58,743 nucleotides of DNA from an uncultured Bacilli bacterium (GCA_947629475.1 CANRDV010000001.1:1-58743); one strand, 5' to 3'; numbered from the stretch's first letter, positions 33,970 through 50,433 are shown. Notes: generated by a model from the letters alone, not told the origin. Numbers and translations are program-made.

Positions 33970-34023
33970 TTCAATCACTCCTTTAAACACCATGAGTATA
34001 TCATATTTCTTTCAGAAAATCAA

Positions 34024-34866
34024 TCAACTTTTGAATTTTTGAATACGAAATCGACAATTTTTACACATATTACATAAAATTTTATTATTTAGAAAACCAT
34101 TATGTATTTCTAAGAATTTATTACTCTTTAAAATATATTCTAAATCATTATCAAAAATGTTACCTAATTTTAAAATACCACTTGAATCTAAGCAACAAGG
34201 GACAACATCACCATTAGCAAGAATTGCTATATGACTTCGAGTACCAAGACAAGTACCTTGAACTTCTTTGTTATTTATACTATCAGTAGGCCATTCAAAG
34301 TAATTATCTTTATCTAAGTATAAATTATTAGTAATTTTAATATTTTTATTTTTTATAACTTCTTCCTTAAAACTATTATCTAAATTATAGTAATCAATAA
34401 TTTTATCCACAATCATGGTGGATAAAATATCTAAAGTTAAATTATCAAGTAACCAAATACGATAAATAATGGGGAAAAAATTTTTTAATTCATTAGAAGT
34501 TTCAAATACTTCATCAAAATAGTTTTTCTTATTATTCTCAGAATGTAAAGAAATATTTAATTGTTTAATACAATTATGTCTCTTTAAAATATCTTTCTTT
34601 TCTTTTAAAAGAGTACCATTAGTTGTTATTTTAACTTTCATTTTATAGTTATCACATATTGTAAGTAACTTACCTAAGTTAGAATAAAGTAAGGGTTCTC
34701 CTTTAACATGTAAATAAATTGATTTAGTATAATCTTTAATTTTATCTAAAACAATTTTAAAGTTATCTAGAGACATTTCTTCTTTAATTCTTTTATCTTT
34801 ACTACAAAAAGAACAATTTAAATTACAAATATTAGTAATTTCTACATAAATCTTGGTAAATTTCAT
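34024..34866 (-). CDS. Radical SAM protein with SPASM-like C-terminal Cys cluster
   Basis: CNLNCSFC (CxxxCxxC) near the N-terminus. C-terminal CCLD..C..C..C cluster. ATGA overlap with the uvrB stop. Confidence 0.8.
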
Positions 34867-36818
34867 TCTTCTGCCTTCATTTCAAATAAAATATCTCTTA
34901 GTTCCATAGCCCGTTCAAAGTCAAGATTTTTAGCTGCTTCTTTCATTTCGTTTTCAAGTCTTACAATCATATCCATTTTTTCTTTCTTAGACATTTTTGT
35001 TTTTTCTTTCTTTTCGCTTCTTGTATCTAAGTTAGATATTAAATCCCTTATTTCTTTGATAATTGTCTTAGGTGTAATTCCATGTTCAAGATTATATTTT
35101 TCTTGAATTTCTCGTCTTCTTTTGGTTTCTGTTATCGCATAGTCCATACTATCAGTCATCTTATCAGCATATAAAATAACATGACCATTTGCATTTCTGG
35201 CACATCTTCCAATTGTTTGGATTAAACTTCTTTCACTTCTTAAGAACCCTTCTTTATCAGCATCAAGAATTGCAATTAAACTAACCTCAGGAATATCAAG
35301 TCCTTCTCTTAAAAGATTGATACCAACTAAAACATCATAGTTACCAAGTCTTAAATCTCTTATTATTTTCATTCTTTCTAATGTTTTAATTTCTGAGTGT
35401 AAATAAGCAACTTTTATATCTAATTGTTTTAAATAATTAGTTAATTCCTCAGCCATTCTGATTGTTAAAGTTGTAACTAAAACTCTTTCATTATTGGAAA
35501 TTCTTGTGTTTATTTCTCCAACTAAGTCATCGATTTGACCTTTTGTTTTACGGACTTCGATGGTTGGGTCTAATAGTCCGGTTGGTCTTATGATTTGTTC
35601 TATGAATTTACCATTAGTAAGTCCTAGTTCATAGTCACCAGGAGTTGCTGAGACATAGATTACTTGATTAAGTTTGGCTTCAAACTCGGGAAATTTTAAA
35701 GGTCTATTATCAAGGGCACTTGGAAGACGGAACCCATAGTCAACTAGATTTAGTTTTCTAGCTCTATCACCATTATACATACCTCTTACTTGAGGAATTG
35801 TTACATGGGATTCATCAATTACAAGTAAAAAGTCTTTCTTAAAGAAATCAAGTAAACAAGTAGGAGTTGCTCCCGCGGGCTTTAAAGCAAGATGTCTCGA
35901 GTAATTTTCAATTCCATGACAAAATCCAGTTTCTTCAAGCATTTCCATATCATAGTTCGTTCTTTCTCTTATTCTTTCAGCTTCAAGTGGCTTATTATTT
36001 TGATTAAAGTATTCAATTCTGTCTTGTAACTCATCCTTAATATTTTTAATTGCAAGTTTTAAAGTTTCATCATTTGTTACAAAGTGACTAGCTGGGAATA
36101 AAGTAACACTTTTTTTATTATTAAGAATTGCTCCCGTTAAAACATCAATTTCACTTATTCTATCAATCTCGTCTCCAAAAAATTCAACTCTAATTCCATG
36201 TTCATGTTCATTTGATGGAATTATTTCTAAAGTATCTCCTCTTACTCTAAAGGTTCCTCTTTTAAAATCAAATTCATTTCTTTCATATAACATATCAACT
36301 AATTTTAACATTATATTATTTCTATCAACATTGTCACCTACTTTTAAAGTTAAAGTTTTATTTTTATACTCGGAAACTTCTCCAATTCCATAGATGCAAG
36401 AAACACTTGCAACAACTATTACATCATTACGAGAAAGTAGAGCACTTGTTGCAGAATGTCTGAGTTCATCAATTTCATCATTTATCTGAGCATCTTTTTC
36501 TATATAAGTATCACTTGATGGAACATAGGCTTCAGGTTGATAATAATCATAATAAGATACAAAATATTCAACACGGTTATTCGGAAATAATTCTTTTAAT
36601 TCCGAATAAAGTTGTCCTGCTAACGTCTTATTATGAGCAAGAACTAAAGTTTGTTTATTAACATTTTTAATAACATTTGCAATTGTAAAAGTTTTACCAG
36701 TTCCCGTTGCTCCAAGTAATACCTGGTGTTTAACTCCATTTAAAACTCCATCTGTAAGTTCTTTAATAGCATTAGGTTGGTCTCCATTTGGAGTATAATT
36801 AGATACTAATTCAAACAT
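34863..36818 (-). CDS. uvrB: Excinuclease ABC subunit B
   Basis: GATGTGKT Walker A, DESH box, QTIGRCARN motif VI, and C-terminal UVR domain. Confidence 0.95.
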
Positions 36819-36916
36819 AACTTTCTCCTTTCTAGTTTGGGTAAAGTCTTAAATAATTAAAATTTAAACTTACTGGTTCCACATGTGGAACCAAGTCATA
36901 TGTACTTAATCAAATT
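36644..36916. repeat. Repeat R2, copy a: uvrB 5' end plus upstream region
   Basis: Re-occurs at 38539..38801 with substitutions and small indels. Confidence 0.85.
36874..36893. promoter_or_regulatory. Perfect 20-bp palindrome upstream of uvrB
   Basis: TGGTTCCACATGTGGAACCA, 56-75 nt upstream of the uvrB ATG. Confidence 0.4.
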
Positions 36917-36972
36917 ACTAATTATTATACTATAATGTAATAATTAAATAAATACTTTTTAATAATTTAACT

Positions 36973-36996
36973 AAAAAAATCACTTTCGTGACTTTT
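36973..36996 (-). terminator. Rho-independent terminator of the transglutaminase-like gene
   Basis: On the minus strand: AAAGTCAC-GAAA-GTGATTTT followed by a T run. Confidence 0.6.
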
Positions 36997-37011
36997 AAAC
37001 TTATTTTAAAT

Positions 37012-38139
37012 TTAGTACTTTCTTGCAATAGTTTCATCTAAACTTTCTCTAATTACAATATTATATTTTCCTCTTCTAGCCTCTATTTCTATTTTGTTGG
37101 CTTCTTCTAATTCACGTTTTAAAAATCCGTTTGGAATTTTCTTATTTGTAATTTGATATTTGCCTTTAGCACCTTCTATAGTTTGATAATCTTGTGTTAA
37201 AGGAAAAAATGCATATTGATAATCTTGCTCTTCACCAACATAAGTTTGATCATATAAAAACCATGATTCAGATTCTCTTATTTGTAATAAATTCCAAGCA
37301 TGTCCGTAAGGTATTCCATCATCAATGATTGAACCACCAAGTAAACGACAATCAATTTTCATATAAGGATTATTTAATAGCATCATAAAAGCCTCGGCTT
37401 GACCCTCACATACTCCTTCACCATTTTTTAAAGTATCATTTGCAAAATGATATCCTAATTTTTTATTTATATCATTTGGAAAAGCTATATGTTTAGATAA
37501 ATATTGACTAACAAGTAATACTTTTTGAAAATCAGGGTGTATGCCTTTGAGTTTTAAGGTTGAATTAAGAATTTGAAGAAGTGTACGTTTTAATTTTAAA
37601 GCATCACGAAGATTATAAAAATTACCTATGAAACCTTTATTCATCCTTTCACTATATTTTATTCTTCCATCAGTATCACTGCAATCTCTTCTATCGAATC
37701 TAATAAATCTAGAATCTGCATTTTCAATTTCGTTATGCCACATTAAATACTGTAATGGAATAATAGTTATACAATTTAAGTTCTTTAAATCAAGTGATGT
37801 TCTATCTTTTAAAAGCATATCAGGAAACAATTTAATTACTTTTTGGTTAGCATTTATAAGAGAAGCAATTCTTTTGGCATTTTCAAAGTAATGCTCATCT
37901 TCAACATTTATGTGTAACTCCATATTAGGATAGTCCCTAAATATTTTATTTAAATATTCTATTGTTTTTATATCATCTGCTTCTTCTTTTGAAGTATCAA
38001 CTAAAAGTCTCAAAGATATAGGATGCTTTGGTAGAATTATCATTCTTCTTTTAGTTAATTCACGATAACTTATGGTTATACAATTGGGATATTCTTTTCT
38101 TACATTTTCATAATTACTTATAAATCTAATTTCACGCAT
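37012..38139 (-). CDS. Transglutaminase-like cysteine protease fold protein (hotspot cargo 1)
   Basis: Cys-His-Asp core pattern: GEGVCEGQAEAF ... YGHAWNLL ... FLYDQTY. Start moved to the ATG (MREIRF) after the GGAGA RBS. Confidence 0.6.
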   Translation of the reverse strand: MREIRFISNYENVRKEYPNCITISYRELTKRRMIILPKHPISLRLLVDTSKEEADDIKTIEYLNKIFRDYPNMELHINVEDEHYFENAKRIASLINANQKVIKLFPDMLLKDRTSLDLKNLNCITIIPLQYLMWHNEIENADSRFIRFDRRDCSDTDGRIKYSERMNKGFIGNFYNLRDALKLKRTLLQILNSTLKLKGIHPDFQKVLLVSQYLSKHIAFPNDINKKLGYHFANDTLKNGEGVCEGQAEAFMMLLNNPYMKIDCRLLGGSIIDDGIPYGHAWNLLQIRESESWFLYDQTYVGEEQDYQYAFFPLTQDYQTIEGAKGKYQITNKKIPNGFLKRELEEANKIEIEARRGKYNIVIRESLDETIARKY

Positions 38140-38214
38140 TTTATCTCCTTTTTCTATAAATAAATTATATATTATAAATTTATATATTACAAGATATTGA
38201 TTATTTAAATATAT

Positions 38215-38339
38215 CAAAGAGGACTTAAATTAAGTCCTCTTGGTAGCAGCCTGACAATGTCAAGCAAAATAACCTTCTATTTTTCGGAACATATTAATAT
38301 GACTGCCGAAGCTAGGCTGGGGCTACCATCTCCCGTTCG
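38215..38339 (-). ncRNA. Candidate about 125-nt structured RNA, copy A
   Basis: Minus-strand promoter TTGATA-17-TATAAT (38374..38346). Closing helix GGTAGC..AGCCT / AGGCT..GCTACC. Terminator AAGAGGACTTAA/TTAAGTCCTCTT. Confidence 0.4.
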
Positions 38340-38540
38340 TATATAATTATATACTATTTTAAACGAATTATCAATGGATTATGCTAAAATATTCCAAGTA
38401 TTTCATCATCTTTAACATCAATGTTTAGATAATTAGCATTATTAGATAAACCTGGCATTCTAACAACCCCTCCCATTAATATGGTTATAAATCCGGCTCC
38501 ATTATTGATTTTATAACCTGTAACCGTCATTGTAAAATCT
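38216..38540. repeat. Repeat R1, copy a (325 bp): small RNA locus plus fhs 3' end
   Basis: Collinear with 44677..45001, no indels, and about 14 mismatches by eye. Confidence 0.9.
38384..38540 (-). pseudogene. 3'-terminal fragment of fhs (last about 51 codons plus stop)
   Basis: Near-identical to 44845..45001 and lacks the rest of the gene. Joined to a uvrB fragment at 38539/38540. Confidence 0.9.
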
Positions 38541-38712
38541 AAAGTTTGTTTATTAACATTTTTTATAACATTAAAAATTGTAAAAGTCTTACCAGTTTCG
38601 GTTGCTCCAAGTAAAACTTGATGTTTAACTCCCTTTAAAACTTCATCTGTAAATTCTTTAATAGCATTAGGTTTGGCTCCATTTGGAGTAAATTAGATAC
38701 TAATTCAAACAT
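38539..38712 (-). pseudogene. 5'-terminal fragment of uvrB (about 57 codons), frameshifted
   Basis: Matches uvrB 36644..36818, including the GTGKT-encoding stretch. A 1-nt deletion sits near codon 8 (GAGTAAATT versus GAGTATAATT). Confidence 0.9.
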
Positions 38713-38756
38713 AACTTTCTCCTTCCTATTTAGGATTAAATATTAGATTTATTTTA

Positions 38757-38779
38757 TTGGTTACACAGTGTGTAACCAA
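38757..38779. promoter_or_regulatory. Variant palindrome in the duplicated uvrB upstream region
   Basis: TTGGTTACACA-G-TGTGTAACCAA. Both arms are changed symmetrically relative to the copy at 36874. Confidence 0.4.
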
Positions 38780-38819
38780 GTCATATGTGCTTAATCAAAT
38801 TCTTTTAAAAATTGTCTAA

Positions 38820-41704
38820 TTAATCTTCAATATTTTTAATACTATTTAATATTTCAATATTAGCATCAATAGGATCGGATTCTTTAGATATATCAACTTC
38901 TTTATCTTTTTTAGTTACTAAGATGCTTTCTATATCATTTTTATTATATACTTTAACAGCATTAATCATCTTTGAAGTTATATTTTCTATTTGTCTTTCA
39001 TCTATAGTATTTTTCATATATAAAAATGTTATTCTAACACCTTTAGATTTGTCGTCATCTTTATATTCACGATAAGTTTTACTAAAATATCTATCAATTC
39101 TTCCAATTCTTTGTTCCATATCACCAGGAGTCCAAGCAATTCCATAATGAATAATATGAGAACAATTTCTTTGTAAATCAATTCCTTCTTTAACAATATC
39201 AGTTGCAATCATAATATCAGGATAAAAACTTGTATTAAACCAAATACTTTTATTATAAACATTATCTCCATCATTATTACTTGAACAACCAACTATACTA
39301 TCTCTACAAAATTGTCTTTTATTTAATATATCTTGAATTTTTTTATCATCTAATTCATTATCATTCTTATAAAAATTACTATAACCTAAATGATTAAGAA
39401 GAGCATCAATATCTGGAACTTCATTATCATCAGAAGTAAAAGATTTAAAAAAATCTTGAACTCGATTATAAATCCTTTTCCAAAAATTCTTATTCTTATT
39501 TTTAACTATTTCTTTTAAGATATCTCTATAATTTATATCTTTTTTATCTTTCTCTAGTTTACAAACTAAGGCAATAAAATATAAAATACTTTCACTATTA
39601 ATAATATTACTTTTAATAATATCTTTAATAAACTCTCTTTTTAAAAACATTTCTTTTTCAAATTTAATATTTTCATTATTATACATTAATTGATTTAAAT
39701 TAAAGTATTCTTTATCCCATATAGAAGGATTATTTTTAAATAAAGTTTGTAAGTCAAATAAATCAATATTAAAATCCTTATTATGCTTTACTTCTTTACC
39801 AAAATAGAAAGATTCATATTCTTTAGGTATATATTCCCAAATTTTTCCATCCTTTGCTAATTTTTCCAATAATATTAAATTTACAACTCTTTTTCTTGTT
39901 AATCTCTTTAATTTTTTATCAGATATACTAACATCTTTATTTTTTAATTTTTCTTTTATTTCTGAGACTGTAATAGAATACTTACCTTTCTCTTTAAATT
40001 CAACTTCTAATTTATCTTCATTCTTGTTATAATTAATATCTTTAATATTAAACCCTAATAGTTTAAAATAATCTTCTTCAAATAATTCATCAAATTTATT
40101 ATAATTTAGAAATCTCTTTTTATAATTAGGTAAAATAGTGTTATTAGTAGGTTTAACTCTCAGTTCTTTTAACCATGAAGATTCATATGGTTCATTTTTT
40201 TTCTTATCATCATCTCCATAGTAATTATTTTCTAAAGAATCATCAGAAATTTCCTCATCTTCCTTATCATTTTTACCTAATAATTCATTTTCAAATTTTT
40301 CAATTGCTTTTTTTGGATCATCATCTTTAATATTAATAATTTCATCAATTAAGTCTGTTAAAGTATTATCATAATCATCAACTAAAACCTTTTCAATATC
40401 TTTAATAGTACTTTTAATTCTAACAAATATTAAAGTTTTATCTATTTTAGTATTATCATGATTTTTTTCAGAAATTATATCTTTAATTGCTCTAGGTTTT
40501 GGATGTGATAAAATATCATTTGCTTTATTCTTAAATTTGTTTTCTAAATCTTCTTTAAAATAATCAATTAGATAAGTATCAATTTTATCTTTACTATCAG
40601 GACTAAGTTCATCTTCATTAGGAATTTCATCTTTATTATTATTTAAGGTATCTTTATAAAAACGTTCAAATCCATCAAGAGAACCAATTCTAAAAATATA
40701 ACCATTTTGAGCAATTTCATTTTTTTGAATTAAAGCCATAGTTAAACCTTCATGAAACGTCATTTCTGATTCTGTAGTTTCATATTCACGATAATAAAAC
40801 TTACTGTGATTATTATAGATTCTATTTCTTTTAATAATATTTATATAATTATTTAGATTCTTTTTTGTTAAATCTTCTTTCTTATTAAGAATATTAATCT
40901 TTTTCTCTTTCTTAATTACAAAAGACATTTGATTAAAAACATCTTTTTCTGAATTATGATAAGGAGTAGCTGTTAGAAATAAAGTTTTTTTAAACTTCAT
41001 TTTATCATTATCAGATTCATTATTTTTATAATATAATCCAAAGAAAGCAGAAAAACATTCAGCTTTTTTAGAATCAGTTTTTCTTATATTTTGAGATTCA
41101 TCAATTATAACTAAATCAAATTCAGGTAATTCATTATTTAGTTTAAGTAATTCATTACATAAAGCCCTTAGATAGTTATCATATTCTTTAGAATTATTTT
41201 TATCATAACTTGGTAATTTAACATTAAGACCTATTTTACTAAAATTATTCTCACTTATAAAACTAAAACTATTTATTCTTATAATAGAGATTACATGTTT
41301 ATTTTTAAATTCATTTTTAAGTTCAATTAATTTTAAAGGATTATTAATTAAATCTTCATTATAATCATTATAGAGAATAACATCATCAATACTTTTTTTA
41401 AACAATTATTAGTAAACTTTCTATATTCTTTATCTATCCATTTTTTAGCAACATAATAATTAGGAGCAATTATTAAAATATTACTTTTTTGTTTCTTATT
41501 TATAATATTTCTATAAAAAGCTAATCCTAATCCTTCATAAGTTTTACCTAAACCAACATCATCAGCAATCATAAGAGTCTTATTAGATTCTAAAATACGA
41601 TTAGCCATTAAAATACCTTCTTCTTGAATCTTAGCCATATCGTTATTACCTAAATCAATATATTTTCTAAAGTCTTCTATATCATTCTCTTTTATTGTTT
41701 TCAT
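38820..41704 (-). CDS. SNF2/SF2-family helicase (about 960 aa if fused), interrupted by a frame change in an A7 run
   Basis: ORFs 41348..41710 and 38820..41405. Motif I ADDVGLGKT, Ia IIAPNYY, II VIIDESQ, III LTATP, IV TLIFVR, V IATDIVKEGIDLQ, VI GDMEQRIGRIDR. GGAGG RBS before the ATG at 41704. Confidence 0.75.
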
Positions 41705-43406
41705 AGTCAACCTCCAGATTATCCAAATAAATATCTAATAATTCTTTGGCTTTTTTTTCTTTTAACTTAAATTCATCTTTAAGTTTTGAAATAGCTTCTT
41801 TTTTTAATTCCTCAAATACTTTATTAAATTCATCATACTTAATAATATATTTATTTAAGATAATTTCAATTTCTTTAGCAGTTAATAAAAAGTATAATAA
41901 ATTTTTATCTTCAAAATTATTCTTATATTCCGAAACAAAAGAATCTGTAAAATTATCAAATTTTCTATCATAAATAGTTAAAGGTTTATTCTCTTCTTTT
42001 TTTAAATTTTCAGTTATTTTATTATAAGTAACATATATATTAGCAATATCATATTTATCTTTTTCATAACTCTTTTTAGAATCAGTTTCCTTTTCTTCGT
42101 AAGTTTCTAGTCGAAGTTTATGTTTATTAGTTTTAACAAATTCTAAAAAATCGAAATAATTGGCAGTTATAGTTAATATATTAAAATTATCAGGAAGATT
42201 TTTAATATAGAAAGTTCCATAGGCTTTATATTTATTGTCTATTTCAAGACAAAAAAATCTGTTTAATAATATCTGATTAAAAATATCATCATTTAAGTTA
42301 CAACTAAATTTATTAGATTCATTTTTAGTTAAAGTTAATTCATAAGTCAAAAGTTTTACATTTTGATAATTTTTTTCTAAAGTAATTGTAACTTCATTTG
42401 TATTATAATCTAATATAGCATCTTCAATTTTAATTGTAGAACTATCCTTATCTTCATCTTCCGTTTCAACATTTTCCTGATATTCATATTCTGTTTTATT
42501 TTTATATAATTCTTTAAACCAATTCTTAAAGTTTTCTATTGTTTTAGTATCTTTTATAATTAAAGATGCTTCAACGTTTTTATTATTTATAGCTTTATTA
42601 GTAAAATTATGAGAACCAACTATTACTTTATCATCCATAATATAAACTTTAGCATGAATAAATTCTTTATCATTATTAAGAACAAATAATTTTTTTAAAG
42701 AGGAATCATATTTATTACCATCACTAAAACCACTTTTACTAGTTAATAAAATTTCCGCATCTTTAAACTTTTCATTTGTAAGCATATCATTAGTTATAAA
42801 AGGAGTGACTATTTTTAAATTATTATTATTAATTTTATCTAAAAAGTTTTTTTCATCATTTAAACCAGTTAGAATTAATTTATCATTTAATTTACCATTA
42901 TTAGCTAAATTTTCAATAATTTGCCATATATCATTAGAATTTTTTATGATTTCTTCAATTATATTTTTTTTATCAATAGTAAGAATACCTAGAACTTCTT
43001 TATTAATACCATAACTACTTGTTGTTAAATTAGCAGATGATACCAATAAAGTTAAAATATCTTTTTTCTTTTTTTTACCTATAATTATAATTAACTTAGG
43101 ATGAAATACCCCATTTGCTTTAACTTGTTTTATTTGGTAATTACCAATTTTTTCATAATCACCTAAATAATTATCACAAAAGACATTTATTTTAGTATTT
43201 TTTTCATGTAGTTTATTAGTAAGAGCCTCAACAATAAAAAATTCTTGATTTCTAATTCCTTTATGAATTTCTATATCAAATAAATAGGGTAGCAATTTTG
43301 TTTCAAAGAAAGGGATATCTAAACTATAAGTTGTAAAAATTAAATTACTTATAGTATCATATTCATCTATTTTTTCTTTAATTTTATCTTTTAATTTTAT
43401 TTCCAT
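41682..43406 (-). CDS. Phospholipase-D superfamily (tandem HKD) nuclease-like protein with about 300-aa unknown C-terminal region
   Basis: HKD-1 FHPKLIIIIG..LLVSSANLT lacks the Asp. HKD-2 IHAKVYIMDDKVIVGSHNFT is canonical HxK(x)4D(x)6GSxN. Overlaps both neighbouring genes. Confidence 0.8.
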   Translation of the reverse strand: MEIKLKDKIKEKIDEYDTISNLIFTTYSLDIPFFETKLLPYLFDIEIHKGIRNQEFFIVEALTNKLHEKNTKINVFCDNYLGDYEKIGNYQIKQVKANGVFHPKLIIIIGKKKKKDILTLLVSSANLTTSSYGINKEVLGILTIDKKNIIEEIIKNSNDIWQIIENLANNGKLNDKLILTGLNDEKNFLDKINNNNLKIVTPFITNDMLTNEKFKDAEILLTSKSGFSDGNKYDSSLKKLFVLNNDKEFIHAKVYIMDDKVIVGSHNFTNKAINNKNVEASLIIKDTKTIENFKNWFKELYKNKTEYEYQENVETEDEDKDSSTIKIEDAILDYNTNEVTITLEKNYQNVKLLTYELTLTKNESNKFSCNLNDDIFNQILLNRFFCLEIDNKYKAYGTFYIKNLPDNFNILTITANYFDFLEFVKTNKHKLRLETYEEKETDSKKSYEKDKYDIANIYVTYNKITENLKKEENKPLTIYDRKFDNFTDSFVSEYKNNFEDKNLLYFLLTAKEIEIILNKYIIKYDEFNKVFEELKKEAISKLKDEFKLKEKKAKELLDIYLDNLEVDYENNKRE

Positions 43407-44563
43407 GAATCCATACTCCTTATAAGACTTTGAACAGCATCAAGATAATATAAATGACTAAATTCTGATTCTGGTTCTATAATATCTCGTTTTGCTGTAT
43501 GAATAATATAATATTTATTATTAATTTTTTTAATCCAAGGATTTGATTTATCTTCTGTTATAATCTTGATATGATCATCTATAAGAGCATGAATTATTTC
43601 AGTATTAGATTTTCTAATATTATCTCTTAAATTAGGATAATAATCTTCTTTAAAGAAAAAATCTAATTTATTTTTATTATAATAATCTTTTAATTCATCA
43701 ACCATTTTATTTAATTCGTTATTATTTTCTAAGTTATTTAAATTATCTTGTTTAAGGAGAGTATAAAAAATATTATTTAAATAAGTTAAAAAAGGTTCTA
43801 ATGCTAAAATATTTTTAATTGTTTCATTTGAGTTATTATTAGAAAAAATTTCTTTTATATTTAAACTATTATCATTTTTTAGAATTTCATAAATATTATT
43901 AAGATATTTTTCTTCTTTACTTATTATTCCTAATGTGTTTAAATATTTCTCTTTTTGATTATCCTTAACTTGTAAAATATTTATTATTGTATTTTTAATA
44001 TCATCTTTTATATCTTTATAGTGTATTACATTATTATTTTTTAAAATATCAAAAAAAGAGTCTATTAATTTTTGTTTATCATAAGAATTATTAAAAGTTA
44101 TATCTAAAATTTTATCTTTTAATTTTTCTGTTTTTGAGTTATATCTTCCTATATAACCTGAACTTTCTTGACCAACTAAAATTTCTTTTTCAGCTGATAT
44201 AATGGGATTATTGTTCTTGGCAGTTGTATAAAGTTTCATTCCGTTATTATCGCCTAAGAATTTTATATTTTTATTTTTTTTAATATTATACTCAACTAAT
44301 ATATATATAATAATCATTTCATATTTTATTTTAATATCGTTTTTTTCTTTGGGTGTAAATGCAATATTATTATATTTTTCTAATTTATCGATTACTTTAA
44401 GTCCAAGTGCAGTTATAATAAATCCTTTTATATCATCAGTTACTGAAGTAATATTAGGATAAAGTTTTCTAGCAAGATTTGACCAAATTGATTGTTGTCT
44501 TAAAGGGTCTCTTTGAATATTTCTTTCAATATCTGTGTCTTTTATAGTTAAAAATGCTTCCAT
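43397..44563 (-). CDS. Hypothetical protein (388 aa), first gene of the PLD-helicase operon
   Basis: AGGAGAA RBS. 10-nt overlap with the PLD gene. No motif recognised. Confidence 0.65.
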   Translation of the reverse strand: MEAFLTIKDTDIERNIQRDPLRQQSIWSNLARKLYPNITSVTDDIKGFIITALGLKVIDKLEKYNNIAFTPKEKNDIKIKYEMIIIYILVEYNIKKNKNIKFLGDNNGMKLYTTAKNNNPIISAEKEILVGQESSGYIGRYNSKTEKLKDKILDITFNNSYDKQKLIDSFFDILKNNNVIHYKDIKDDIKNTIINILQVKDNQKEKYLNTLGIISKEEKYLNNIYEILKNDNSLNIKEIFSNNNSNETIKNILALEPFLTYLNNIFYTLLKQDNLNNLENNNELNKMVDELKDYYNKNKLDFFFKEDYYPNLRDNIRKSNTEIIHALIDDHIKIITEDKSNPWIKKINNKYYIIHTAKRDIIEPESEFSHLYYLDAVQSLIRSMDSWK

Positions 44564-44586
44564 ATTTTTCTCCTATCTTTATAAAT

Positions 44587-44615
44587 ATTTTATCATATTG
44601 TTTATAATAGGTCAA
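44587..44615 (-). promoter_or_regulatory. Sigma-A type promoter of the three-gene operon
   Basis: On the minus strand: TTGACC, 17-nt spacer, TAAAAT, about 25 nt upstream of the RBS. Confidence 0.5.
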
Positions 44616-44619
44616 AAGA

Positions 44620-44642
44620 AAATTAGGATTAGTTCCTAATTT
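44620..44642. promoter_or_regulatory. Inverted repeat abutting the -35 (candidate operator)
   Basis: AAATTAGGA-ttagt-TCCTAATTT, perfect 9-bp arms. Confidence 0.35.
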
Positions 44643-44675
44643 AGTATCATTACTTGAAAACAAATTTATTATATT

Positions 44676-44800
44676 AAAAGAGGACCTAAATTAAGTCCTC
44701 TTGGTAGCAGCCTGACAATCTCAAGCAAAATAACCTTCTATTTTTCGGAACATATTAATATGACCGCCGAAACTAGGCTGGGGCTACCATCTCCCGTTTG
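44676..44800 (-). ncRNA. Candidate about 125-nt structured RNA, copy B, immediately downstream of fhs
   Basis: Promoter TTGATA-17-TATAAT (44835..44807). Closing helix GGUAGC/GCUACC plus AGCCU/AGGCU. Internal hairpin UUUCGG..CCGAAA. Terminator hairpin 44678-44702 followed by a U-tract. Confidence 0.4.
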
Positions 44801-45001
44801 TATATAATTATATACTATATTAAACCAATTATCAATAGATTATGCTAAAATATTCCAAGTATTTCATCATCTTTAACATCAATGTTTAGATAATTAGCAT
44901 TATTAGATAAACCTGGCATTCTAACAACACCACCCATTAATATGGTTATAAATCCAGCTCCATTATTTATTTTATAACCTGTAACAGTCATGGTAAAATC
45001 T
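44677..45001. repeat. Repeat R1, copy b (325 bp)
   Basis: See 38216..38540. Confidence 0.9.
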
Positions 45002-46428
45002 TTTGGATAACCTAAAATATCTTTATTATCAGTAATTGATGCAGGAGTTTTTGAGATACATATTTTATAATGTTGATATTTTTTATCAAGATTTTTTAAT
45101 TCTTTATCAAGATTATCTTTATAAACTACCTTACTTGCACCATAGATATCTTTGGCAAACTTATCAACTTTAGTTAAGATATCATCATTTAGATTATATA
45201 TTTCATATTGTTTAGTATTACCTTTATTAGCAAGTTCTACAACTTTGAGAGCAATTTCTTTAGTACCGCGACTTCCATTTTTATACATATTACTAATTAA
45301 TACTTCAACATTTAAATTATGACAATAATCCTTTAATATATTAATTTCTTCTTTAGTATCACTTTCAAATTTATTTAAGATAACTAAAACATTATCATTA
45401 AACTTTTGCATATTTAAAATATGAAACTTTAAGTTTTCAATTCCTCGAGTTAAGTCGCCATTTCCATGATATTTTAAACTTCTAATGGTTGCATTGATAA
45501 CTACTAAATCAGGGTATAAATTATTTAGGGAACATTTAATATCAAAGAATTTAACAGCACCCATATCACTTCCGAAGCCTGCTTCTGTTATTACATAATC
45601 TGATAAACTTAAAGCAGTCTTGGTGGCAACCACGGAATTACAACCATGAGCAATATTGGCAAAAGGTCCTCCATGAATAATCGCAGGATTATTTTCTAAA
45701 GTTTGAACTAAGTTAGGTTTAAAAGCATCTTTAAGTAAAGCAAGAACAGCACCAGTTCCTTTTAAATCTTTTAAATAGATTTCTTTTCCTTTTGAGTTTC
45801 TTCCTATTAAAATATTGTCTAGTTTATTTCTTAAATCATCAATGTCTTTAGCTAAAGTAAAGATTGCCATGATTTCTGATGCAGCCGTTATGGTAAAGCT
45901 TTCTTTTCTTGTTCCAAGGTCAATATGTCTTAAAGCTCTATCATTTACATCTAAACATCTTTCAAAGTAAACTTCTTCTATATCTAACTTATTTCCTTGA
46001 TAAATATGATTATCAATTATAGCAGAAATTAAATTATTAGCAGATGTAATTGCATGAAAATCTCCTGTAAAATGTAAATTAATATCATTCATTGGAGCAA
46101 CTTGACTTTTTCCTCCTCCAGCAGCCCCGCCCTTTGTTCCAAACACAGGTCCAAGCGATGGTTCTCTTAAAGCAACAACTGCTTTGTATCCATTTCTATT
46201 TAAAGCATCGTTTAACCCAACAGCAAGAGTAGTCTTTCCTTCTCCATAAGGAGTAGGATTAGTAGAGGTTACTAAAATTAACTTACCTTTTTTCTTTTTA
46301 TCTAGTGCTGGAATCTTAGCCATATATTTACCATATGGAATAAGATTATCTTCCTTAATATTAATTTTACTTGCAACTTCTTTAATAGGTTTAAGTTTAG
46401 CCTTTTTACTTATTTCATAATCTGTCAT
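44845..46428 (-). CDS. fhs: Formate--tetrahydrofolate ligase
   Basis: TPYGEGKTT P-loop. EPSLGPVFGTKGGAAGGG motif. Start moved to the ATG after AGGTGG. Confidence 0.95.
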   Translation of the reverse strand: MTDYEISKKAKLKPIKEVASKINIKEDNLIPYGKYMAKIPALDKKKKGKLILVTSTNPTPYGEGKTTLAVGLNDALNRNGYKAVVALREPSLGPVFGTKGGAAGGGKSQVAPMNDINLHFTGDFHAITSANNLISAIIDNHIYQGNKLDIEEVYFERCLDVNDRALRHIDLGTRKESFTITAASEIMAIFTLAKDIDDLRNKLDNILIGRNSKGKEIYLKDLKGTGAVLALLKDAFKPNLVQTLENNPAIIHGGPFANIAHGCNSVVATKTALSLSDYVITEAGFGSDMGAVKFFDIKCSLNNLYPDLVVINATIRSLKYHGNGDLTRGIENLKFHILNMQKFNDNVLVILNKFESDTKEEINILKDYCHNLNVEVLISNMYKNGSRGTKEIALKVVELANKGNTKQYEIYNLNDDILTKVDKFAKDIYGASKVVYKDNLDKELKNLDKKYQHYKICISKTPASITDNKDILGYPKDFTMTVTGYKINNGAGFITILMGGVVRMPGLSNNANYLNIDVKDDEILGIF

Positions 46429-46526
46429 TTTTACCACCTACTTAAATTATAACAAATATATATTTATTTTTAAATATATTTGTCAATTAATTTACTTAAA
46501 ATTAAAAAGTAAAATAGTTTCCTAAA

Positions 46527-46814
46527 TTACTTTCTTTTAAATTTAGTATCTTCTTTAAAAGAACTATTTGTAAATATTCCAGTAGGAGCTTTTTCAAAAA
46601 TTAATTTAATATCTTTAATTTTCATTTTAAAGTAAGGTGGTTCAAAATCAAAATCTTTATATTTTGTAATTTTGATAATATTTTTAAATAAAAACTTAAG
46701 GTTATCATCAAGTAAGTTTTCTTCTTCATAATATGAATACATATAAAGAAGTAGGGAAGTTTTAACTAGTAAAATATCATCATCTTTTAAAGTTCTTATA
46801 TAATTATAATCCAT
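46527..46814 (-). CDS. Hypothetical protein (about 95 aa)
   Basis: ORF 46527..46856. The ATG lies 1 nt after the HIT gene stop and is preceded by AAGGA. Confidence 0.45.
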   Translation of the reverse strand: MDYNYIRTLKDDDILLVKTSLLLYMYSYYEEENLLDDNLKFLFKNIIKITKYKDFDFEPPYFKMKIKDIKLIFEKAPTGIFTNSSFKEDTKFKRK

Positions 46815-46815
46815 A

Positions 46816-47187
46816 TTAATAATCCTTTTTATCAGGGATAACCCCACGAATTCCACCTTTTGGGTCTAATACATCTCCATTATATCTTGGAATTAAATGT
46901 AAATGCATATGATTAACAGTTTGACCAGCAGCATGACCTATATTACAACCAATATTATAACCATCTGGCTTAAATTCATTATCAATTAATCTTTTAGCAT
47001 CATCTACTAAATTAAAAATAGCAGTTCTTTCATCTTCAGTAATATCAAAAAAGTCATCAGCATGTCTTTTAGTAATAAATAACATATGTCCTTTAGAAAC
47101 TGGAAATTCATCATAGAAAGCATAAGCTAAATCATTTTCTAATACAGGTTCTATATTTTCAATCTTATAACAAAATGGACAATCCAT
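46816..47187 (-). CDS. HIT family hydrolase
   Basis: Histidine triad NHMHLHLIPR. Confidence 0.9.
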   Translation of the reverse strand: MDCPFCYKIENIEPVLENDLAYAFYDEFPVSKGHMLFITKRHADDFFDITEDERTAIFNLVDDAKRLIDNEFKPDGYNIGCNIGHAAGQTVNHMHLHLIPRYNGDVLDPKGGIRGVIPDKKDY

Positions 47188-47302
47188 AATATCACTCCTT
47201 TATTTAATTTTAACATTATTTTAGTTTAAAAACAAGGAGAAAAAGAAAATCTTGCATTTTTGATATTTTTGTGATATAATATGTACTCGAAAAGAGGGCT
47301 AT

Positions 47303-48034
47303 ATGGAAAAGAAAAGAAAATTAAGAAAAAGAAAATCACCAAGACATTATATATTAGGAGGAGTTGTTTGGGCTCTTGTTGGTTCAATTGCTGGAACTGC
47401 TACATACGCTCATTTGACAAAAAACGACAGTCAAGTAAGCACTGTAAATGATATGACAACAGAGTGTAAAATACCATGTAAACATTTACACTGCTATATG
47501 AATAAGGATGGCTATGTTACTTATCTTCCAAGAGAAGAGAAAGAAATAAATGGTTTTATAAAACAAGATATTATAAAACAAGTCTTTTTTGATAGTGATA
47601 TTGAGTTTGCGAATAAATTATTTGAAAACGGCTTTGTTGTTGCTGAGGATAATAGACCTTTAATTGAATATATTGAAGGTACAACTTGGGAAAGTAAATT
47701 AGATGGTTATGATGATGCGGGTAATCCAATTTATAAATGTGCTGGCTTTTATGCATTTCAATATAATTCAGATACTGATACTTTTGTAAGAAGTGATTAT
47801 ACTGCTTCTGTTTTCAATATAAATGAAGAATATCCTTATATTAAAATTAATGGTTTATACGATATGATATCAGAAGATAAATTAAATGAAGATTTTCAAA
47901 GTTTCTTTGAAGATGATGGAGGAGATGTCTTTGATAACTATGATGAGTGGTTTGGAGACGAATCTGATAATCAAGAAATGATTTTATCTGTAAAACATAA
48001 TAAACAAAAGACAATTGGAGCAAGAAATTGCTAA
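47303..48034 (+). CDS. Hypothetical membrane-anchored protein (243 aa)
   Basis: Basic N-terminus, one TM helix, and an acidic C-terminal region. Confidence 0.55.
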   Translation: MEKKRKLRKRKSPRHYILGGVVWALVGSIAGTATYAHLTKNDSQVSTVNDMTTECKIPCKHLHCYMNKDGYVTYLPREEKEINGFIKQDIIKQVFFDSDIEFANKLFENGFVVAEDNRPLIEYIEGTTWESKLDGYDDAGNPIYKCAGFYAFQYNSDTDTFVRSDYTASVFNINEEYPYIKINGLYDMISEDKLNEDFQSFFEDDGGDVFDNYDEWFGDESDNQEMILSVKHNKQKTIGARNC

Positions 48035-48158
48035 AATTGTCTTTTTAAGAAAATAAACAATATAATAACATATCTATTTAAAAAAATAGAATTTATTTAG
48101 AAAACATCTTTATTTTTTAAATAATTTAGTGTATAATCGTATTATAAGTGAGGTAGAT

Positions 48159-48833
48159 ATGAAAATAAAAGTTTCAGCATATTCTAGTATTATGCAATTA
48201 ATTAGTTCTGTAGTATTATTTATATTAGGAGCATTACTTTATTCTAAGCCAACCGAAGTAATGTTAGCAGTTACCTATGGAATGGGTGGTTTAATAACTT
48301 TAGTTGGAGTATTCAATTGTATTAAAAATTATCTTGATGTAAAAAAAGATAATACAACTTCATCTAAAGGAATGATTTTAGGTATTGTTTTAGCCGTTGT
48401 TGGTTTAGTATTTATCTTTTTAGGTGAAGTAATTGAACAAGTTATTAGATTTATAATTGGTGGTTGGATACTTGTATGTGGAATTACAAGACTTGCAAAT
48501 GCTTTGATGATAGAAAAAAAAGATACGAACTTTTGGGTATTACTTATATTATCTATTTTATTAATAGGTGGAGGTTTATATACTATATTAATAAAGAATT
48601 TAGAAATGCAAATCGCAGGATTAATTTTAATGGGTTATGCAATTCTTGAAATATTTGGTCATGTATTTAGTCGTAAACAAGGTCTTGAATTTGAAGTAAC
48701 TCCAAGTGCCACAGATAAACCTAAAATAGAAGATACTAATATTAAAGAAGCTGAAGTAATTAATGATAATACAAAAGATACTAAGAAAGATAAAAAACAA
48801 AAGAAAAATAAAAAAGATAAGCAAGACAAATAA
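48159..48833 (+). CDS. HdeD/DUF308-like membrane protein with Lys-rich tail
   Basis: Six TM-like segments with a GxxxG-rich pattern. Start moved to the ATG after GAGGT. Confidence 0.55.
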   Translation: MKIKVSAYSSIMQLISSVVLFILGALLYSKPTEVMLAVTYGMGGLITLVGVFNCIKNYLDVKKDNTTSSKGMILGIVLAVVGLVFIFLGEVIEQVIRFIIGGWILVCGITRLANALMIEKKDTNFWVLLILSILLIGGGLYTILIKNLEMQIAGLILMGYAILEIFGHVFSRKQGLEFEVTPSATDKPKIEDTNIKEAEVINDNTKDTKKDKKQKKNKKDKQDK

Positions 48834-48835
48834 TA

Positions 48836-50433
48836 GATAGCGTAAAAATGTTTTGGAATTAACTACAAAAGGCGATATTATTAAGTAATAACGAAATTGG
48901 ATTAGAAGAAGATTTAACTGGAATGTTTGAAGAACTTTTTTCAAAAATTGAAAAAGAAACCTCTTGTTCATCGTAAACAAAATTATCTTCTTCTTTTTTA
49001 TTATAAGAAGATAAGTAGAGACTCATAATGTTGACTCCATTGAATTTATCTTCTTGTAATTTAATATAATTTTCAATTCTATTCCTTGAAAACCCCTTAG
49101 GTCTAGAGCCAAAATAGTTAGCCATATAGTGTGAAATATGAGATTCCATTGATGATTTTACATCTCTGTCAGTCATATTTAAAATGGACTTCCAATGCTT
49201 TACAATATAATCTTTGTATTTAGTTTTTTTCTCTTTCTTTTTTTCATCATTAACTTTTTCAATAATTTCATCTGCTAATTTAATGAAACCTTTTTTATCT
49301 TTATCTACATAAATTAACTTATAAAGATTATCTCTATTTTCTTTATTAGAAGTAAATCTATTGATATATAGTTTTACATGAAATTCACAAGTATTAGCAA
49401 TTACTTTATTATTTTTGTTTAATTTCAATTCATCTTTTCCACTTAAAATCCAATTACCACAATCACTTAATAAATATATTTCATCAATTTCTTCAAAGTT
49501 ATATATATTAAATATTTCATCAATAAAACTTTTCCAAGGAGTGTCATTAGAAGTCATAAATATATGTCTGTTTAGTAATTGCTTGCGATTGTTTTTTGTT
49601 ATTGCACCAGTAAAAGTAACAAAACATTTTCCCATAATATAATGATGTTTATCTTTTTCATCATCATTTAGCATCACGTGTCTAATATATTCATGAATCC
49701 ATTTTTCATCAACCATAACATAAAGTCTTTTAACACCTTCGATAGGTTCATATTTAATTTTAGGAATTTTCCACTTATGTATCCAAGTATGGATAGTTTG
49801 CCTAGATACATTTTTAAATTTATTATTATTTAAATAATTAGAATAATCGTTTAAAAGGAGATTAGTTTCATTTGAAGTAATATTGGCATTAGTATTAGTA
49901 GAACTATCAATTAATATTGCTCTTACTAATGGGTCATATGTAGTATATTTCTCAAATTTAAATAATTCATCAATAAAATAAAAACCATTTTTTTTATCTT
50001 TGTCTGTATAATAAATTCTTTCAAAGTCTAAATCACCATAAATAGTAGTAATACTTCTTTTATGAGTATCACATTTATAGAAATTATGTTTTCTATAATC
50101 TGAGCTAAGAAATGCATTATCAATTCTTGGAATTGCTAATTTCATAGTTTCAATTATCATTTTTTTAAACCCGTCGTTTAAACTAATCATGCCTTTAGAA
50201 TATGCATCTTCACCAACATTAAAAAAAATATTTTCAATTAAATCGGGCATCCTCACCTTATTTACTTCAAAAAATGTATTTTTCAAAATATTTATTGCTA
50301 AATTTCTTAATTTTTGTGTTATAATAATCATAGAAAGAACTCCTTTTATTTTTATTTTTTATATATTTATAGGTATATTATACCATGAGTTCTTTCTTTT
50401 TTATAGTTAATTCCAAAACATTTTTACGCTATC
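48836..50433 (-). mobile_element. IS element (ISLre2/UPF0236-like), 1598 bp
   Basis: Perfect 30-bp terminal inverted repeats GATAGCGTAAAAATGTTTTGGAATTAACTA (48836-48865 and 50404-50433). 8-bp direct repeat AAATAATA (48828-48835 and 50434-50441). Confidence 0.85.
48859..50331 (-). CDS. Transposase (490 aa), intact
   Basis: Fills the IS. SDCGNWI and CEFHV motifs parallel SDGATWL and DKYHL of the other IS in this window. Confidence 0.7.
   Translation of the reverse strand: MIIITQKLRNLAINILKNTFFEVNKVRMPDLIENIFFNVGEDAYSKGMISLNDGFKKMIIETMKLAIPRIDNAFLSSDYRKHNFYKCDTHKRSITTIYGDLDFERIYYTDKDKKNGFYFIDELFKFEKYTTYDPLVRAILIDSSTNTNANITSNETNLLLNDYSNYLNNNKFKNVSRQTIHTWIHKWKIPKIKYEPIEGVKRLYVMVDEKWIHEYIRHVMLNDDEKDKHHYIMGKCFVTFTGAITKNNRKQLLNRHIFMTSNDTPWKSFIDEIFNIYNFEEIDEIYLLSDCGNWILSGKDELKLNKNNKVIANTCEFHVKLYINRFTSNKENRDNLYKLIYVDKDKKGFIKLADEIIEKVNDEKKKEKKTKYKDYIVKHWKSILNMTDRDVKSSMESHISHYMANYFGSRPKGFSRNRIENYIKLQEDKFNGVNIMSLYLSSYNKKEEDNFVYDEQEVSFSIFEKSSSNIPVKSSSNPISLLLNNIAFCS

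What the first reader, a model, noticed from the sequence alone, without database searches (positions are those of the whole stretch)
38820..44642. Three-gene operon (unknown protein, tandem-HKD PLD nuclease, SNF2 helicase) in a variable hotspot: candidate uncharacterised defence system
Seen in sequence:
- Three minus-strand genes are translationally coupled, with 10-nt and about 23-29-nt overlaps. They sit behind one promoter (TTGACC-17-TAAAAT) that has a perfect 9-bp-arm inverted repeat next to the -35.
- Gene 1 (388 aa) has no motif I recognise.
- Gene 2 (574 aa) has two HKD motifs. The second is canonical (HAKVYIMDDKVIVGSHN). The first lacks the Asp. About 300 aa of unknown sequence follow.
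- Gene 3 has all SF2/SNF2 helicase motifs.
- The locus is visibly more Lys/Asn/Ile-rich than its neighbours. It occupies a slot that holds an unrelated cargo in the adjacent duplicated copy.

Established knowledge: PLD nucleases paired with helicases recur in anti-phage systems. Examples are DISARM DrmC plus SNF2 DrmD, Mokosh, and, as far as I recall, Azaca.

Inference: there is no methyltransferase, DrmA/DrmB, Upf1-like SF1 helicase or other partner. The combination with an orphan first gene may therefore be a distinct or undescribed system. I cannot exclude from sequence alone that it is a diverged member of a named three-gene helicase/PLD system.
Basis: partly seen in the sequence, partly recalled or inferred. 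Interest (0 to 1): 0.85.

Follow-up and report, generated by a model that had tools for sequence, protein, structure and literature searches.

The report
Frameshifted PDC-M27 (Azaca-like) defence candidate
The three genes are a divergent copy of a candidate anti-phage operon already catalogued as PDC-M27 (unknown helical protein, PLD nuclease, SNF2-like helicase; a relative of the tested Azaca system), and here the helicase is broken by a one-base frameshift.

Summary
Three overlapping minus-strand genes (388 aa unknown, 574 aa tandem-HKD PLD, SNF2-like helicase split at an A7 run) fill a low-GC slot between fhs and uvrB.

The trio is not undescribed. All three proteins have their best PADLOC hits on the A, B and C models of one catalogued, untested candidate, PDC-M27. 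All 76 sampled relatives of gene 1 hit PDC-M27A. The PLD and helicase also hit Azaca ZacB and ZacC (about 1e-18). Gene 1 shows no similarity to ZacA/DUF6361, and its confident predicted fold (pLDDT 94) matches nothing in PDB or BFVD.

The A-PLD-helicase order recurs in every related locus examined. It sits next to GmrSD and WYL genes, between BREX genes, and on a Rhodoferax plasmid. Two related genomes carry 37-43% identical versions at the same fhs or uvrB flank.

Every other relative listed at more than 30% identity has an intact helicase (877-1003 aa). Four further metagenome assemblies of this strain carry the same A7 frameshift.

Most likely it is an Azaca-like helicase-driven PLD nuclease complex against foreign DNA, inactive or switched off in this strain. 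It is a new member of a known candidate kind, of modest interest.

The parts
44620..44642 (-). Perfect 9-bp-arm inverted repeat (AAATTAGGA / TCCTAATTT, 5-nt loop) followed by a T-run. It marks the left edge of the cassette as shared with sister strain L008. It is either an operator or a weak terminator of fhs.
   Evidence: The 83 nt from the inverted repeat to the gene A start are 98.8% identical in L008, against 82% across the whole L008 match, which is mostly coding.
44587..44615 (-). Sigma-70-type promoter-like site, TTGACC-17-TAAAAT, with a TG extension.
   Evidence: 10 of 12 positions match. This is a consensus match only; such sites are near background frequency here.
43397..44563 (-). 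Gene A, 388 aa. A PDC-M27A-family all-alpha protein with no Pfam family and no structural match.
   Evidence: PADLOC PDC-M27A 1.1e-14. The family profile finds 271 representatives, and 76 of 76 sampled hit PDC-M27A. AF2 pLDDT 93.9, pTM 0.90. Foldseek against PDB and BFVD finds nothing.
41682..43406 (-). Gene B, 574 aa. A single-chain tandem-HKD PLD-superfamily nuclease (H102/K104 and H251/K253) with a beta-rich and helical C-terminal region.
   Evidence: PLDc_2 1.3e-17. PDC-M27B 1.2e-22 and ZacB 2.7e-18. Both His/Lys pairs are invariant in 13 relatives. The AF2 model matches two-lobed PLD folds such as PLD3/4, F13 and Tdp1 at E around 1e-9.
41348..41704 (-). Helicase N-terminal fragment (118 aa from the ATG at 41704). 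It carries motifs I and Ia and ends at a stop 17 codons after the frameshift.
   Evidence: ResIII and SNF2-rel_dom hits. PDC-M27C 1.5e-15.
41393..41399 (-). A7 homopolymer run where the helicase reading frame breaks. A8 would restore a single ORF. In frame it reads A_AAA_AAA.
   Evidence: The identical A7 is present in L006, L010, L011 and L012.
38820..41392 (-). Remainder of the helicase: motifs II, III and VI, a long insertion, and Helicase_C. It is in the -1 frame relative to the N-fragment.
   Evidence: Helicase_C 9.5e-12. PDC-M27C 4e-54, DrmD 3.5e-19, ZacC 2.6e-18. The repaired ORF is 43% identical over its full length to intact 970-971 aa homologues.
44664..45001 (-). Flank repeat R1a: the last 157 nt of fhs, a small structured-RNA-like unit and its terminator. 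Homology with R1b ends just after the terminator, at about 44677.
38534..38801 (-). Flank repeat R2a: a copy of the uvrB upstream region plus uvrB codons 1-58. It starts 18 nt after the helicase stop and is joined directly to R1b.
38203..38540 (-). Flank repeat R1b: a copy of fhs codons 480-530 plus the structured-RNA-like unit. It heads the second slot, which holds the transglutaminase-like ORF.
   Evidence: The junction is covered by the independent assemblies L006 and L010.

Best explanation
Identity: the locus is a divergent, very AT-rich member of the three-gene PDC-M27 candidate defence family. PDC-M27 is a sister of the experimentally tested Azaca system.

Inferred mechanism:
- The SNF2-like SF2 ATPase (C) loads on or translocates along invading DNA.
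- It licenses the single-chain tandem-HKD PLD nuclease (B) to cut that DNA.
- The all-helical protein A acts as a third, obligatory subunit, as an adaptor or target sensor.
- This mirrors Azaca, where only the ZacABC complex cuts modified phage T4 DNA, and cutting needs the PLD site and the ZacC Walker A motif.

How it got here: the cassette sits in an fhs-uvrB hotspot and is exchanged between strains by recombination through the conserved flanks.

State in this strain: the helicase carries a -1 frame break at an A7 run. The system is most probably inactive, or OFF, unless the run gains one A.

Shown: family assignment, domain content, conserved gene order, defence neighbourhoods, the frameshift and its presence in five assemblies.
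Inferred: complex formation, DNA targeting, the defence phenotype and loss of function.
For: - A, B and C give their best PADLOC hits to PDC-M27A (1.1e-14), PDC-M27B (1.2e-22) and PDC-M27C (4e-54).
- The gene A family profile retrieves 271 representatives. All 76 sampled hit PDC-M27A, with E down to 8e-191.
- PDC-M27 is a three-family cassette (CAS_00110) assigned as a candidate by Payne et al..
- B hits ZacB at 2.7e-18, well above the DrmC models (about 1e-9). C hits ZacC at 2.6e-18. In a distant member, ZacB covers the whole tandem-PLD region.
- The order A-PLD-helicase is kept in every related locus examined.
- Neighbours are defence genes. Two GmrSD genes and a WYL gene flank L001, L003 and L004. 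BrxC/D, a BrxH-like helicase and PglZ flank L014-16. DUF2779 and WYL precede the trio on a Rhodoferax plasmid.
- In L007 the trio follows an fhs that is 97% identical. In L002 it precedes a uvrB that is 93% identical. The trio proteins themselves are only 37-43% identical.
- The Azaca mechanism is taken from bioRxiv 10.1101/2025.07.10.664194.
- The listed relatives at 34-43% identity are intact at 877-1003 aa; the only closer listed protein is this strain's own 861-aa fragment.
- A7 is identical in four other assemblies.
- The trio holds about 19 sense-strand A7+ runs, so a slip in one of them is an expected mutation.
Against: - No experiment on PDC-M27 was found, so the defence role rests on context and on homology to Azaca.
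- Gene A has no similarity to ZacA/DUF6361. Transferring the mechanism from Azaca is therefore analogy for one of the three subunits.
- The direct hits of A and B to the PDC-M27 models cover mainly their N-terminal halves.
- The window copy has no defence genes as immediate neighbours: fhs, uvrB, a HIT protein, a radical SAM protein.
- The 861-codon downstream frame is free of further lesions in 20% GC DNA. That fits a very recent break, but equally fits continued use through slippage.
Confidence: 0.7

Rival explanations
1. The split helicase is functional. The A7 run would act as a phase-variable switch (A7 to A8 in a subpopulation) or as a site of programmed -1 ribosomal frameshifting or transcriptional slippage. 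Full-length helicase would then be made at a low or regulated level.
For: - In the upstream frame the run reads A_AAA_AAA, a classic slippery heptamer, and a -1 shift gives the correct downstream frame.
- The 2.6-kb downstream frame has no other lesion, although the DNA is 20% GC.
- The same state is found in five assemblies.
Against: - All five assemblies are one clone, with at most 1 SNP in 7 kb and all with A7. No length polymorphism is seen.
- No Shine-Dalgarno-like stimulator or downstream hairpin is visible in the sequence.
- The run is not conserved in homologues, which encode the helicase in one frame.
- The trio has about 19 similar sense-strand A7+ runs, so this one is not special.
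Confidence: 0.12
2. It is a true Azaca system in which gene A is a ZacA (DUF6361) homologue that has diverged beyond sequence recognition.
For: - The architecture and sizes match: an A protein of about 400-460 aa (388 aa here) against ZacA, whose size I did not have; a PLD of about 580-640 aa against the 586-position ZacB model; an SF2 helicase of about 960-1180 aa against the 1019-position ZacC model.
- The ZacB and ZacC models hit B and C at about 1e-18.
Against: - None of 76 gene A family members hits Pfam DUF6361 at E<=0.01.
- None hits a PADLOC ZacA model even at E<=10.
- PADLOC keeps the two systems as separate model sets, and the PDC-M27 models score higher for A and C.
- ZacC scores no better than DrmD for the helicase.
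Confidence: 0.2
3. It is a remnant or minimal form of DISARM: DrmC PLD plus DrmD SNF2 helicase, having lost DrmA, DrmB and the methyltransferase.
For: DrmC models hit B (best 1e-9) and DrmD models hit C (3.5e-19). Beyond the family, the nearest named helicases are DrmD.
Against: - The DrmC and DrmD hits are local, motif-level matches covering about 45-60 residues.
- The PDC-M27 models score far better.
- No DrmA, DrmB or methyltransferase lies in the operon or among the neighbours tested.
- The same three-gene unit recurs without those genes in all related loci.
Confidence: 0.03
4. The trio is not an immune system. It would be a DNA repair, recombination or mobile-element maintenance module that merely rides in variable regions.
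For: - There is no experimental defence phenotype for PDC-M27.
- The window copy lies between housekeeping genes, one of them uvrB.
- A Tn3 transposase and a recombinase lie nearby on the Rhodoferax plasmid.
Against: - The trio is repeatedly adjacent to or embedded in GmrSD, BREX and WYL-regulated loci.
- B and C are homologous to Azaca, which protects E. coli against T4 by more than 1e6-fold.
- The trio diverges strongly at a conserved locus, which is typical of defence cargo.
Confidence: 0.08

Closest known systems
PDC-M27 (PADLOC-DB phage defence candidate, multi-gene no. 27; cassette CAS_00110 of Payne et al., bioRxiv 10.1101/2024.01.29.577857)
   Same: All three proteins match its A, B and C models. 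The gene order and same-strand overlapping arrangement agree. Distant members are embedded in BREX-type loci, which is how the candidate was first defined.
   Different: This is a very divergent, AT-rich branch (gene A E=1e-14; A and B match mainly over their N-terminal halves). Proteins A and B are shorter (388 and 574 aa against 460- and 635-position profiles). The helicase is frameshifted. PDC-M27 itself has no reported experimental test.
Azaca (ZacABC; Millman et al. 2022 from my own knowledge; biochemistry in bioRxiv 10.1101/2025.07.10.664194)
   Same: A three-gene operon with an unknown protein, a PLD nuclease and an SF2 helicase of similar sizes. The ZacB and ZacC models hit B and C at about 1e-18. 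It is the best available mechanistic model: a ternary complex, ATPase-dependent PLD cleavage and a preference for modified T4 DNA.
   Different: ZacA carries DUF6361. Gene A and 76 of its relatives show no DUF6361 or ZacA signal. The target specificity of this system is unknown.
DISARM DrmC (PLD) plus DrmD (SNF2)
   Same: It pairs a PLD-superfamily nuclease with an SNF2-like helicase in a defence context.
   Different: There is no DrmA, DrmB or methyltransferase. Similarity is limited to the catalytic motifs. DrmC is a single small PLD domain of about 250 aa, whereas B is a tandem-HKD protein with an extra region of about 270 aa.

Membership tests
PDC-M27 (PADLOC) | Protein matching the PDC-M27A model | tested here: met
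   E=1.1e-14, and it is the only hit. 76 of 76 family members hit PDC-M27A, with E down to 8e-191. hhalign of the family profile against the A protein of the BREX-embedded trio gives probability 99.9%.
PDC-M27 (PADLOC) | Protein matching the PDC-M27B model (tandem PLD) | tested here: met
   Best hit, E=1.2e-22, residues 3-193. PLDc_2 1.3e-17. Two-lobed PLD fold.
PDC-M27 (PADLOC) | Protein matching the PDC-M27C model (SNF2-like helicase) | tested here: met
   C-piece 4e-54 and N-piece 1.5e-15, both best hits.
PDC-M27 (PADLOC) | Three genes contiguous, on one strand, in the order A, B, C | tested here: met
   The same order is seen in L001-L007, L014-16 and L017.
PDC-M27 (PADLOC) | All components intact | tested here: not met
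   The helicase is split at the A7 run 41393-41399. This affects function, not ancestry.
PDC-M27 (PADLOC) | Anti-phage activity | not testable with these tools
   No publication in the library reports a test.
Azaca | ZacA with a DUF6361 domain | tested here: not met
   No DUF6361 hit in gene A (E<=1) or in 76 relatives (E<=0.01). No ZacA model hit at E<=10. A structural comparison with ZacA was not possible.
Azaca | ZacB PLD nuclease | tested here: met
   ZacB model 2.7e-18, residues 180-363. It ranks second to PDC-M27B.
Azaca | ZacC SF2 helicase | tested here: inconclusive
   ZacC model 2.6e-18, but DrmD scores the same (3.5e-19) and PDC-M27C scores far higher.
DISARM | DrmA (DUF1998-associated helicase), DrmB and a methyltransferase next to DrmC and DrmD | tested here: not met
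   None is in the operon or in the flanking ORFs scanned, 31776-50331.
Mokosh | SF1 (Upf1-like) RNA helicase with PLD; MkoA/B/C models | tested here: not met
   No Mokosh model appears among the PADLOC hits listed for any of the four products at E<=1; the list for the helicase N-fragment shows only the best 25 of 29. The helicase is SF2/SNF2-like.

The most novel reading that the evidence does not exclude
PDC-M27 would be a working Azaca-type nuclease-helicase system in which ZacA has been replaced by an unrelated protein with a previously unseen all-helical fold. That protein would set a different target specificity. In this uncultured gut Bacilli lineage, the system would be switched on and off by slippage at the A7 run in the helicase gene.
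Probability: 0.1. Interest if true: 0.55.

Novelty: new member of a known kind. Interest (0 to 1): 0.3.

Why it matters
It links an untested PADLOC candidate (PDC-M27) to a system with known biochemistry (Azaca). It isolates the one component that differs: a well-predicted protein A with no fold match. That makes a concrete target for testing how such complexes choose their DNA targets.

It also documents a clean fhs-uvrB cassette hotspot. Strongly diverged alleles of the same system sit in the same slot in related genomes, and there is a tandem two-slot arrangement.

This particular copy is frameshifted, and the gene set is already catalogued. The finding is therefore useful context rather than a discovery.

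Tried and rejected
- Rfam found nothing on the whole window at gathering thresholds, nor on 44500-44900 at E<=1. ARAGORN found no tRNA or tmRNA.
- tblastn of gene A against plasmids gave no match. Gene B gave only a 64-residue HKD-motif match. The phage collection was not searched.
- PDB sequence searches found nothing for the gene A family profile. B matched only Zucchini (0.004) and C only RapA (0.001), both at motif level.
- Foldseek of the gene A model against PDB and BFVD gave best E of 0.25 and 0.54 with TM of about 0.1.
- I looked for ZacA sequences to compare directly. The Azaca preprint has no supplementary files held, so only HMM tests were possible.
- The GTDB genome scan with the gene A alignment returned a single locus, the same MAG contig as L002. 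The family is therefore rare among species representatives, or the back-translated patterns were too narrow.
- I searched two papers' main text (on BREX-related systems and on defence modularity) for PLD, HKD/SNF2, Azaca and PDC-M. The passages returned describe no trio like this one.
- Programmed frameshifting was considered and ranked low; see the rival explanations.
Full report
**1. Anatomy**

- Three overlapping ORFs lie on the minus strand:
  - Gene A, 44563..43397, 388 aa.
  - Gene B, 43406..41682, 574 aa, overlapping A by 10 nt.
  - A helicase in two frames: 41710/41704..41348 and 41405..38820.
- The likely helicase start is the ATG at 41704. It lies 6 nt after a GGAGG and overlaps B by 23 nt.
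- The two helicase frames meet at an A7 run, 41399-41393. Inserting one A gives a single 961-963 aa ORF.
- That repaired ORF aligns without a break across the junction with intact homologues. The invariant residues C101, N113, N122 and P123 flank the site.
- Helicase motifs I (GLGKT), Ia, II (DESQ), III (TATP) and VI (QRIGRIDR) are all present.
- B has H102-P-K104 with no Asp, followed by SSAN, and a canonical H251-A-K253-x4-D-x6-GSHN.
- The trio is 19-21% GC, against 24-32% in the flanks.
- A TTGACC-17-TAAAAT site with a TG extension lies at 44615-44587.
- A perfect 9-bp inverted repeat lies at 44642-44620.

**2. Family assignment**

- Pfam gives nothing for A. B hits PLDc_2. The helicase pieces hit ResIII/SNF2-rel_dom and Helicase_C.
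- PADLOC places all products in one catalogued candidate system:
  - A hits PDC-M27A at 1.1e-14.
  - B hits PDC-M27B at 1.2e-22.
  - The helicase pieces hit PDC-M27C at 1.5e-15 and 4e-54.
- The second-ranked hits are Azaca ZacB for B (2.7e-18) and, for the helicase, DrmD (3.5e-19) and ZacC (2.6e-18).
- 'PDC-M' denotes the multi-gene phage defence candidates that Payne et al. predicted from genes embedded in BREX, DISARM and type I RM loci. They added these untested to PADLOC.
- Their supplementary table lists PDC-M27 as the three-family cassette CAS_00110.
- No paper in the library mentions PDC-M27 in its main text.

**3. Gene A**

- A word-indexed search found only nine relatives at 35-66% identity.
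- A profile built from them, run against 1.84 billion representatives, found 271 proteins at E<=1e-3. Nearly all of the best 150 are 380-490 aa and most match end to end.
- All 76 sampled members hit PDC-M27A (best 8e-191). None hits a ZacA model even at E<=10, and none hits Pfam DUF6361.
- DUF6361 is the domain reported for ZacA.
- With the 76-sequence alignment, AlphaFold2 gives a confident all-alpha model, pLDDT 93.9 and pTM 0.90. Only the conserved N-terminal 20 residues are less certain.
- Foldseek finds no similar structure in PDB (best E 0.25, TM 0.11) or in BFVD.
- A profile search of PDB sequences also finds nothing.

**4. Genes B and C**

- Thirteen B relatives keep both His/Lys pairs and the N-terminal FTTF...FFE region. 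The missing Asp in the first motif is a family trait.
- The AF2 model of B has pLDDT 75, good over residues 1-305 and 327-402. It matches two-lobed PLD enzymes (PLD3/4 nucleases, vaccinia F13, Tdp1, PPK) at about 1e-9.
- By sequence, the closest solved relative of B is Zucchini.
- For the helicase, the closest solved relative is RapA.
- Apart from this strain's own 861-aa fragment, the helicase relatives listed at more than 30% identity are single ORFs of 877-1003 aa. Beyond the family there are only motif-level matches to DrmD-type SNF2 helicases.

**5. Conservation and context**

- Every contig carrying a gene A relative has the same A-PLD-helicase order; L008 and L013 end inside the second gene.
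- In L001, L003 and L004 the trio follows DUF2779, two GmrSD genes and a WYL gene.
- A distant, GC-rich trio of 423, 681 and 1179 aa lies between BrxC/D-like genes, a BrxH-like helicase and PglZ. Its members hit the PDC-M27 models and ZacB/ZacC. Its A protein matches the family profile at 99.9% probability.
- A Rhodoferax plasmid carries DUF2779, WYL, a hypothetical protein, a PLD and a helicase, in that order.
- In L007 the trio directly follows an fhs that is 97% identical to the window's. In L002 (a MAG of an uncultured Bacilli bacterium) it directly precedes a uvrB that is 93% identical.
- Yet the L007 and L002 trio proteins are only 37-43% identical to the window's.

The fhs-uvrB interval is therefore a hotspot holding strongly diverged alleles of the same system. 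That is typical of defence cargo.

**6. The tandem slot**

- Window 44664-45001 (the fhs 3' end plus an intergenic unit) recurs at 38203-38540, at about 95% identity.
- Window 36639-36916 (the uvrB upstream region plus uvrB codons 1-58) recurs at 38534-38801, at 86-94% identity.
- Read in the direction of transcription, the layout is: fhs, R1, [trio], R2'(uvrB fragment), R1'(fhs fragment), [transglutaminase-like ORF], R2, uvrB.
- The uvrB'/fhs' junction is covered by two other assemblies.
- I infer that a circularised fhs'...uvrB' segment from a related strain integrated by homologous recombination. An alternative is duplication followed by cargo replacement.
- Homology between the R1 copies stops just after a terminator hairpin. 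The trio cassette, with its own inverted repeat and promoter, spans about 44676-38802.

**7. The frameshift**

- Four other metagenome assemblies match the window at 99.99-100% identity and carry the same A7. The break is therefore real, but all five sequences represent one clone.
- The trio contains about 19 sense-strand A7+ runs, so a slip in one of them is an expected mutation.
- No stimulatory elements for programmed frameshifting are visible.
- The run is not conserved in homologues.
- I therefore read the break as a recent inactivation or an OFF state. Functional slippage remains a minor alternative.

**8. Mechanism**

- The best experimental guide is Azaca. Only the ZacABC complex cuts phage T4 DNA.
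- PLD-site and ZacC Walker A mutants abolish cutting. Protection against T4 exceeds 1e6-fold.
- B and C are homologous to ZacB and ZacC, and the architecture is the same.
- I therefore infer an ATP-driven SNF2-like motor that licenses a tandem-HKD nuclease, with A as an obligatory adaptor or sensor.
- Because A is unrelated, or unrecognisably related, to ZacA, target specificity cannot be transferred from Azaca.

**9. The inverted repeat**

- In sister strain L008 the repeat begins 4 nt after the fhs stop codon and is followed by TTTTCTTTT. L007 has a different hairpin plus T-run at the same place.
- It may be a weak fhs terminator carried at the cassette edge rather than an operator.
- Relatives that have a WYL regulator upstream lack this arrangement.

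**10. Verdict**

- The locus is a divergent member of an already catalogued but untested candidate family that is related to Azaca.
- In this strain it is disabled by a homopolymer frameshift.
- Novelty is 'new member of a known kind', and interest is modest.
- The most useful leads are the foldless-match protein A and the clean hotspot architecture.

Noticed in passing
window 44678-44835 (minus strand) and its copy 38217-38374: A small transcription-unit-like element lies inside flank repeat R1. It has a strong promoter-like site (TTGATA-17-TATAAT, 11 of 12 positions), then about 100 nt of GC-richer structured RNA closed by GGTAGC(CCC)AGCC / GGCTGCTACC, then an intrinsic terminator. It has no Rfam match at E<=1, and its fold z-score is -2.7. 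In the second copy it sits directly 5' of the transglutaminase-like ORF, a riboswitch- or attenuator-like layout. One homologue with the same core and a terminator was found in a 28% GC metagenome contig (L020 2984-3061). Sister strain L008 lacks the element.
   Followed up: partly
window 36639-38801 and 44664-45001: The fhs-uvrB interval is a tandem two-slot structure. A fragment of uvrB (codons 1-58) is fused directly to a fragment of fhs (codons 480-530) at 38539/38540, between the two cargos. This is the footprint expected if a circularised fhs'-cargo-uvrB' segment from another strain integrated by homologous recombination.
   Followed up: partly
window 37012-38217 (minus strand; likely true start is the ATG near 38139): The cargo of the second slot is a protein of about 375-401 aa with a transglutaminase-like cysteine-protease core (Transglut_core 3.5e-07). 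Its function is unknown.
   Followed up: partly
L001 2965-9980, L003 830-7846, L017 2024-4494: DUF2779 and a WYL-domain protein recur immediately upstream of the trio, in both low-GC gut contigs and a Rhodoferax plasmid. In the gut contigs two GmrSD genes lie between them. The WYL protein may be the usual regulator of PDC-M27, and it is absent from the window.
   Followed up: no
L007 6335-6874: In the related genome where the trio follows fhs, the next gene downstream is a DUF1016 (YhcG-like) protein, not uvrB. The hotspot therefore carries additional, different cargo in other strains.
   Followed up: no
window 48859-50331 (minus strand): A 490-aa ORF of the UPF0236 family (9e-26), which from my own knowledge are transposase-like proteins, lies about 4 kb from the hotspot.
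   Followed up: no
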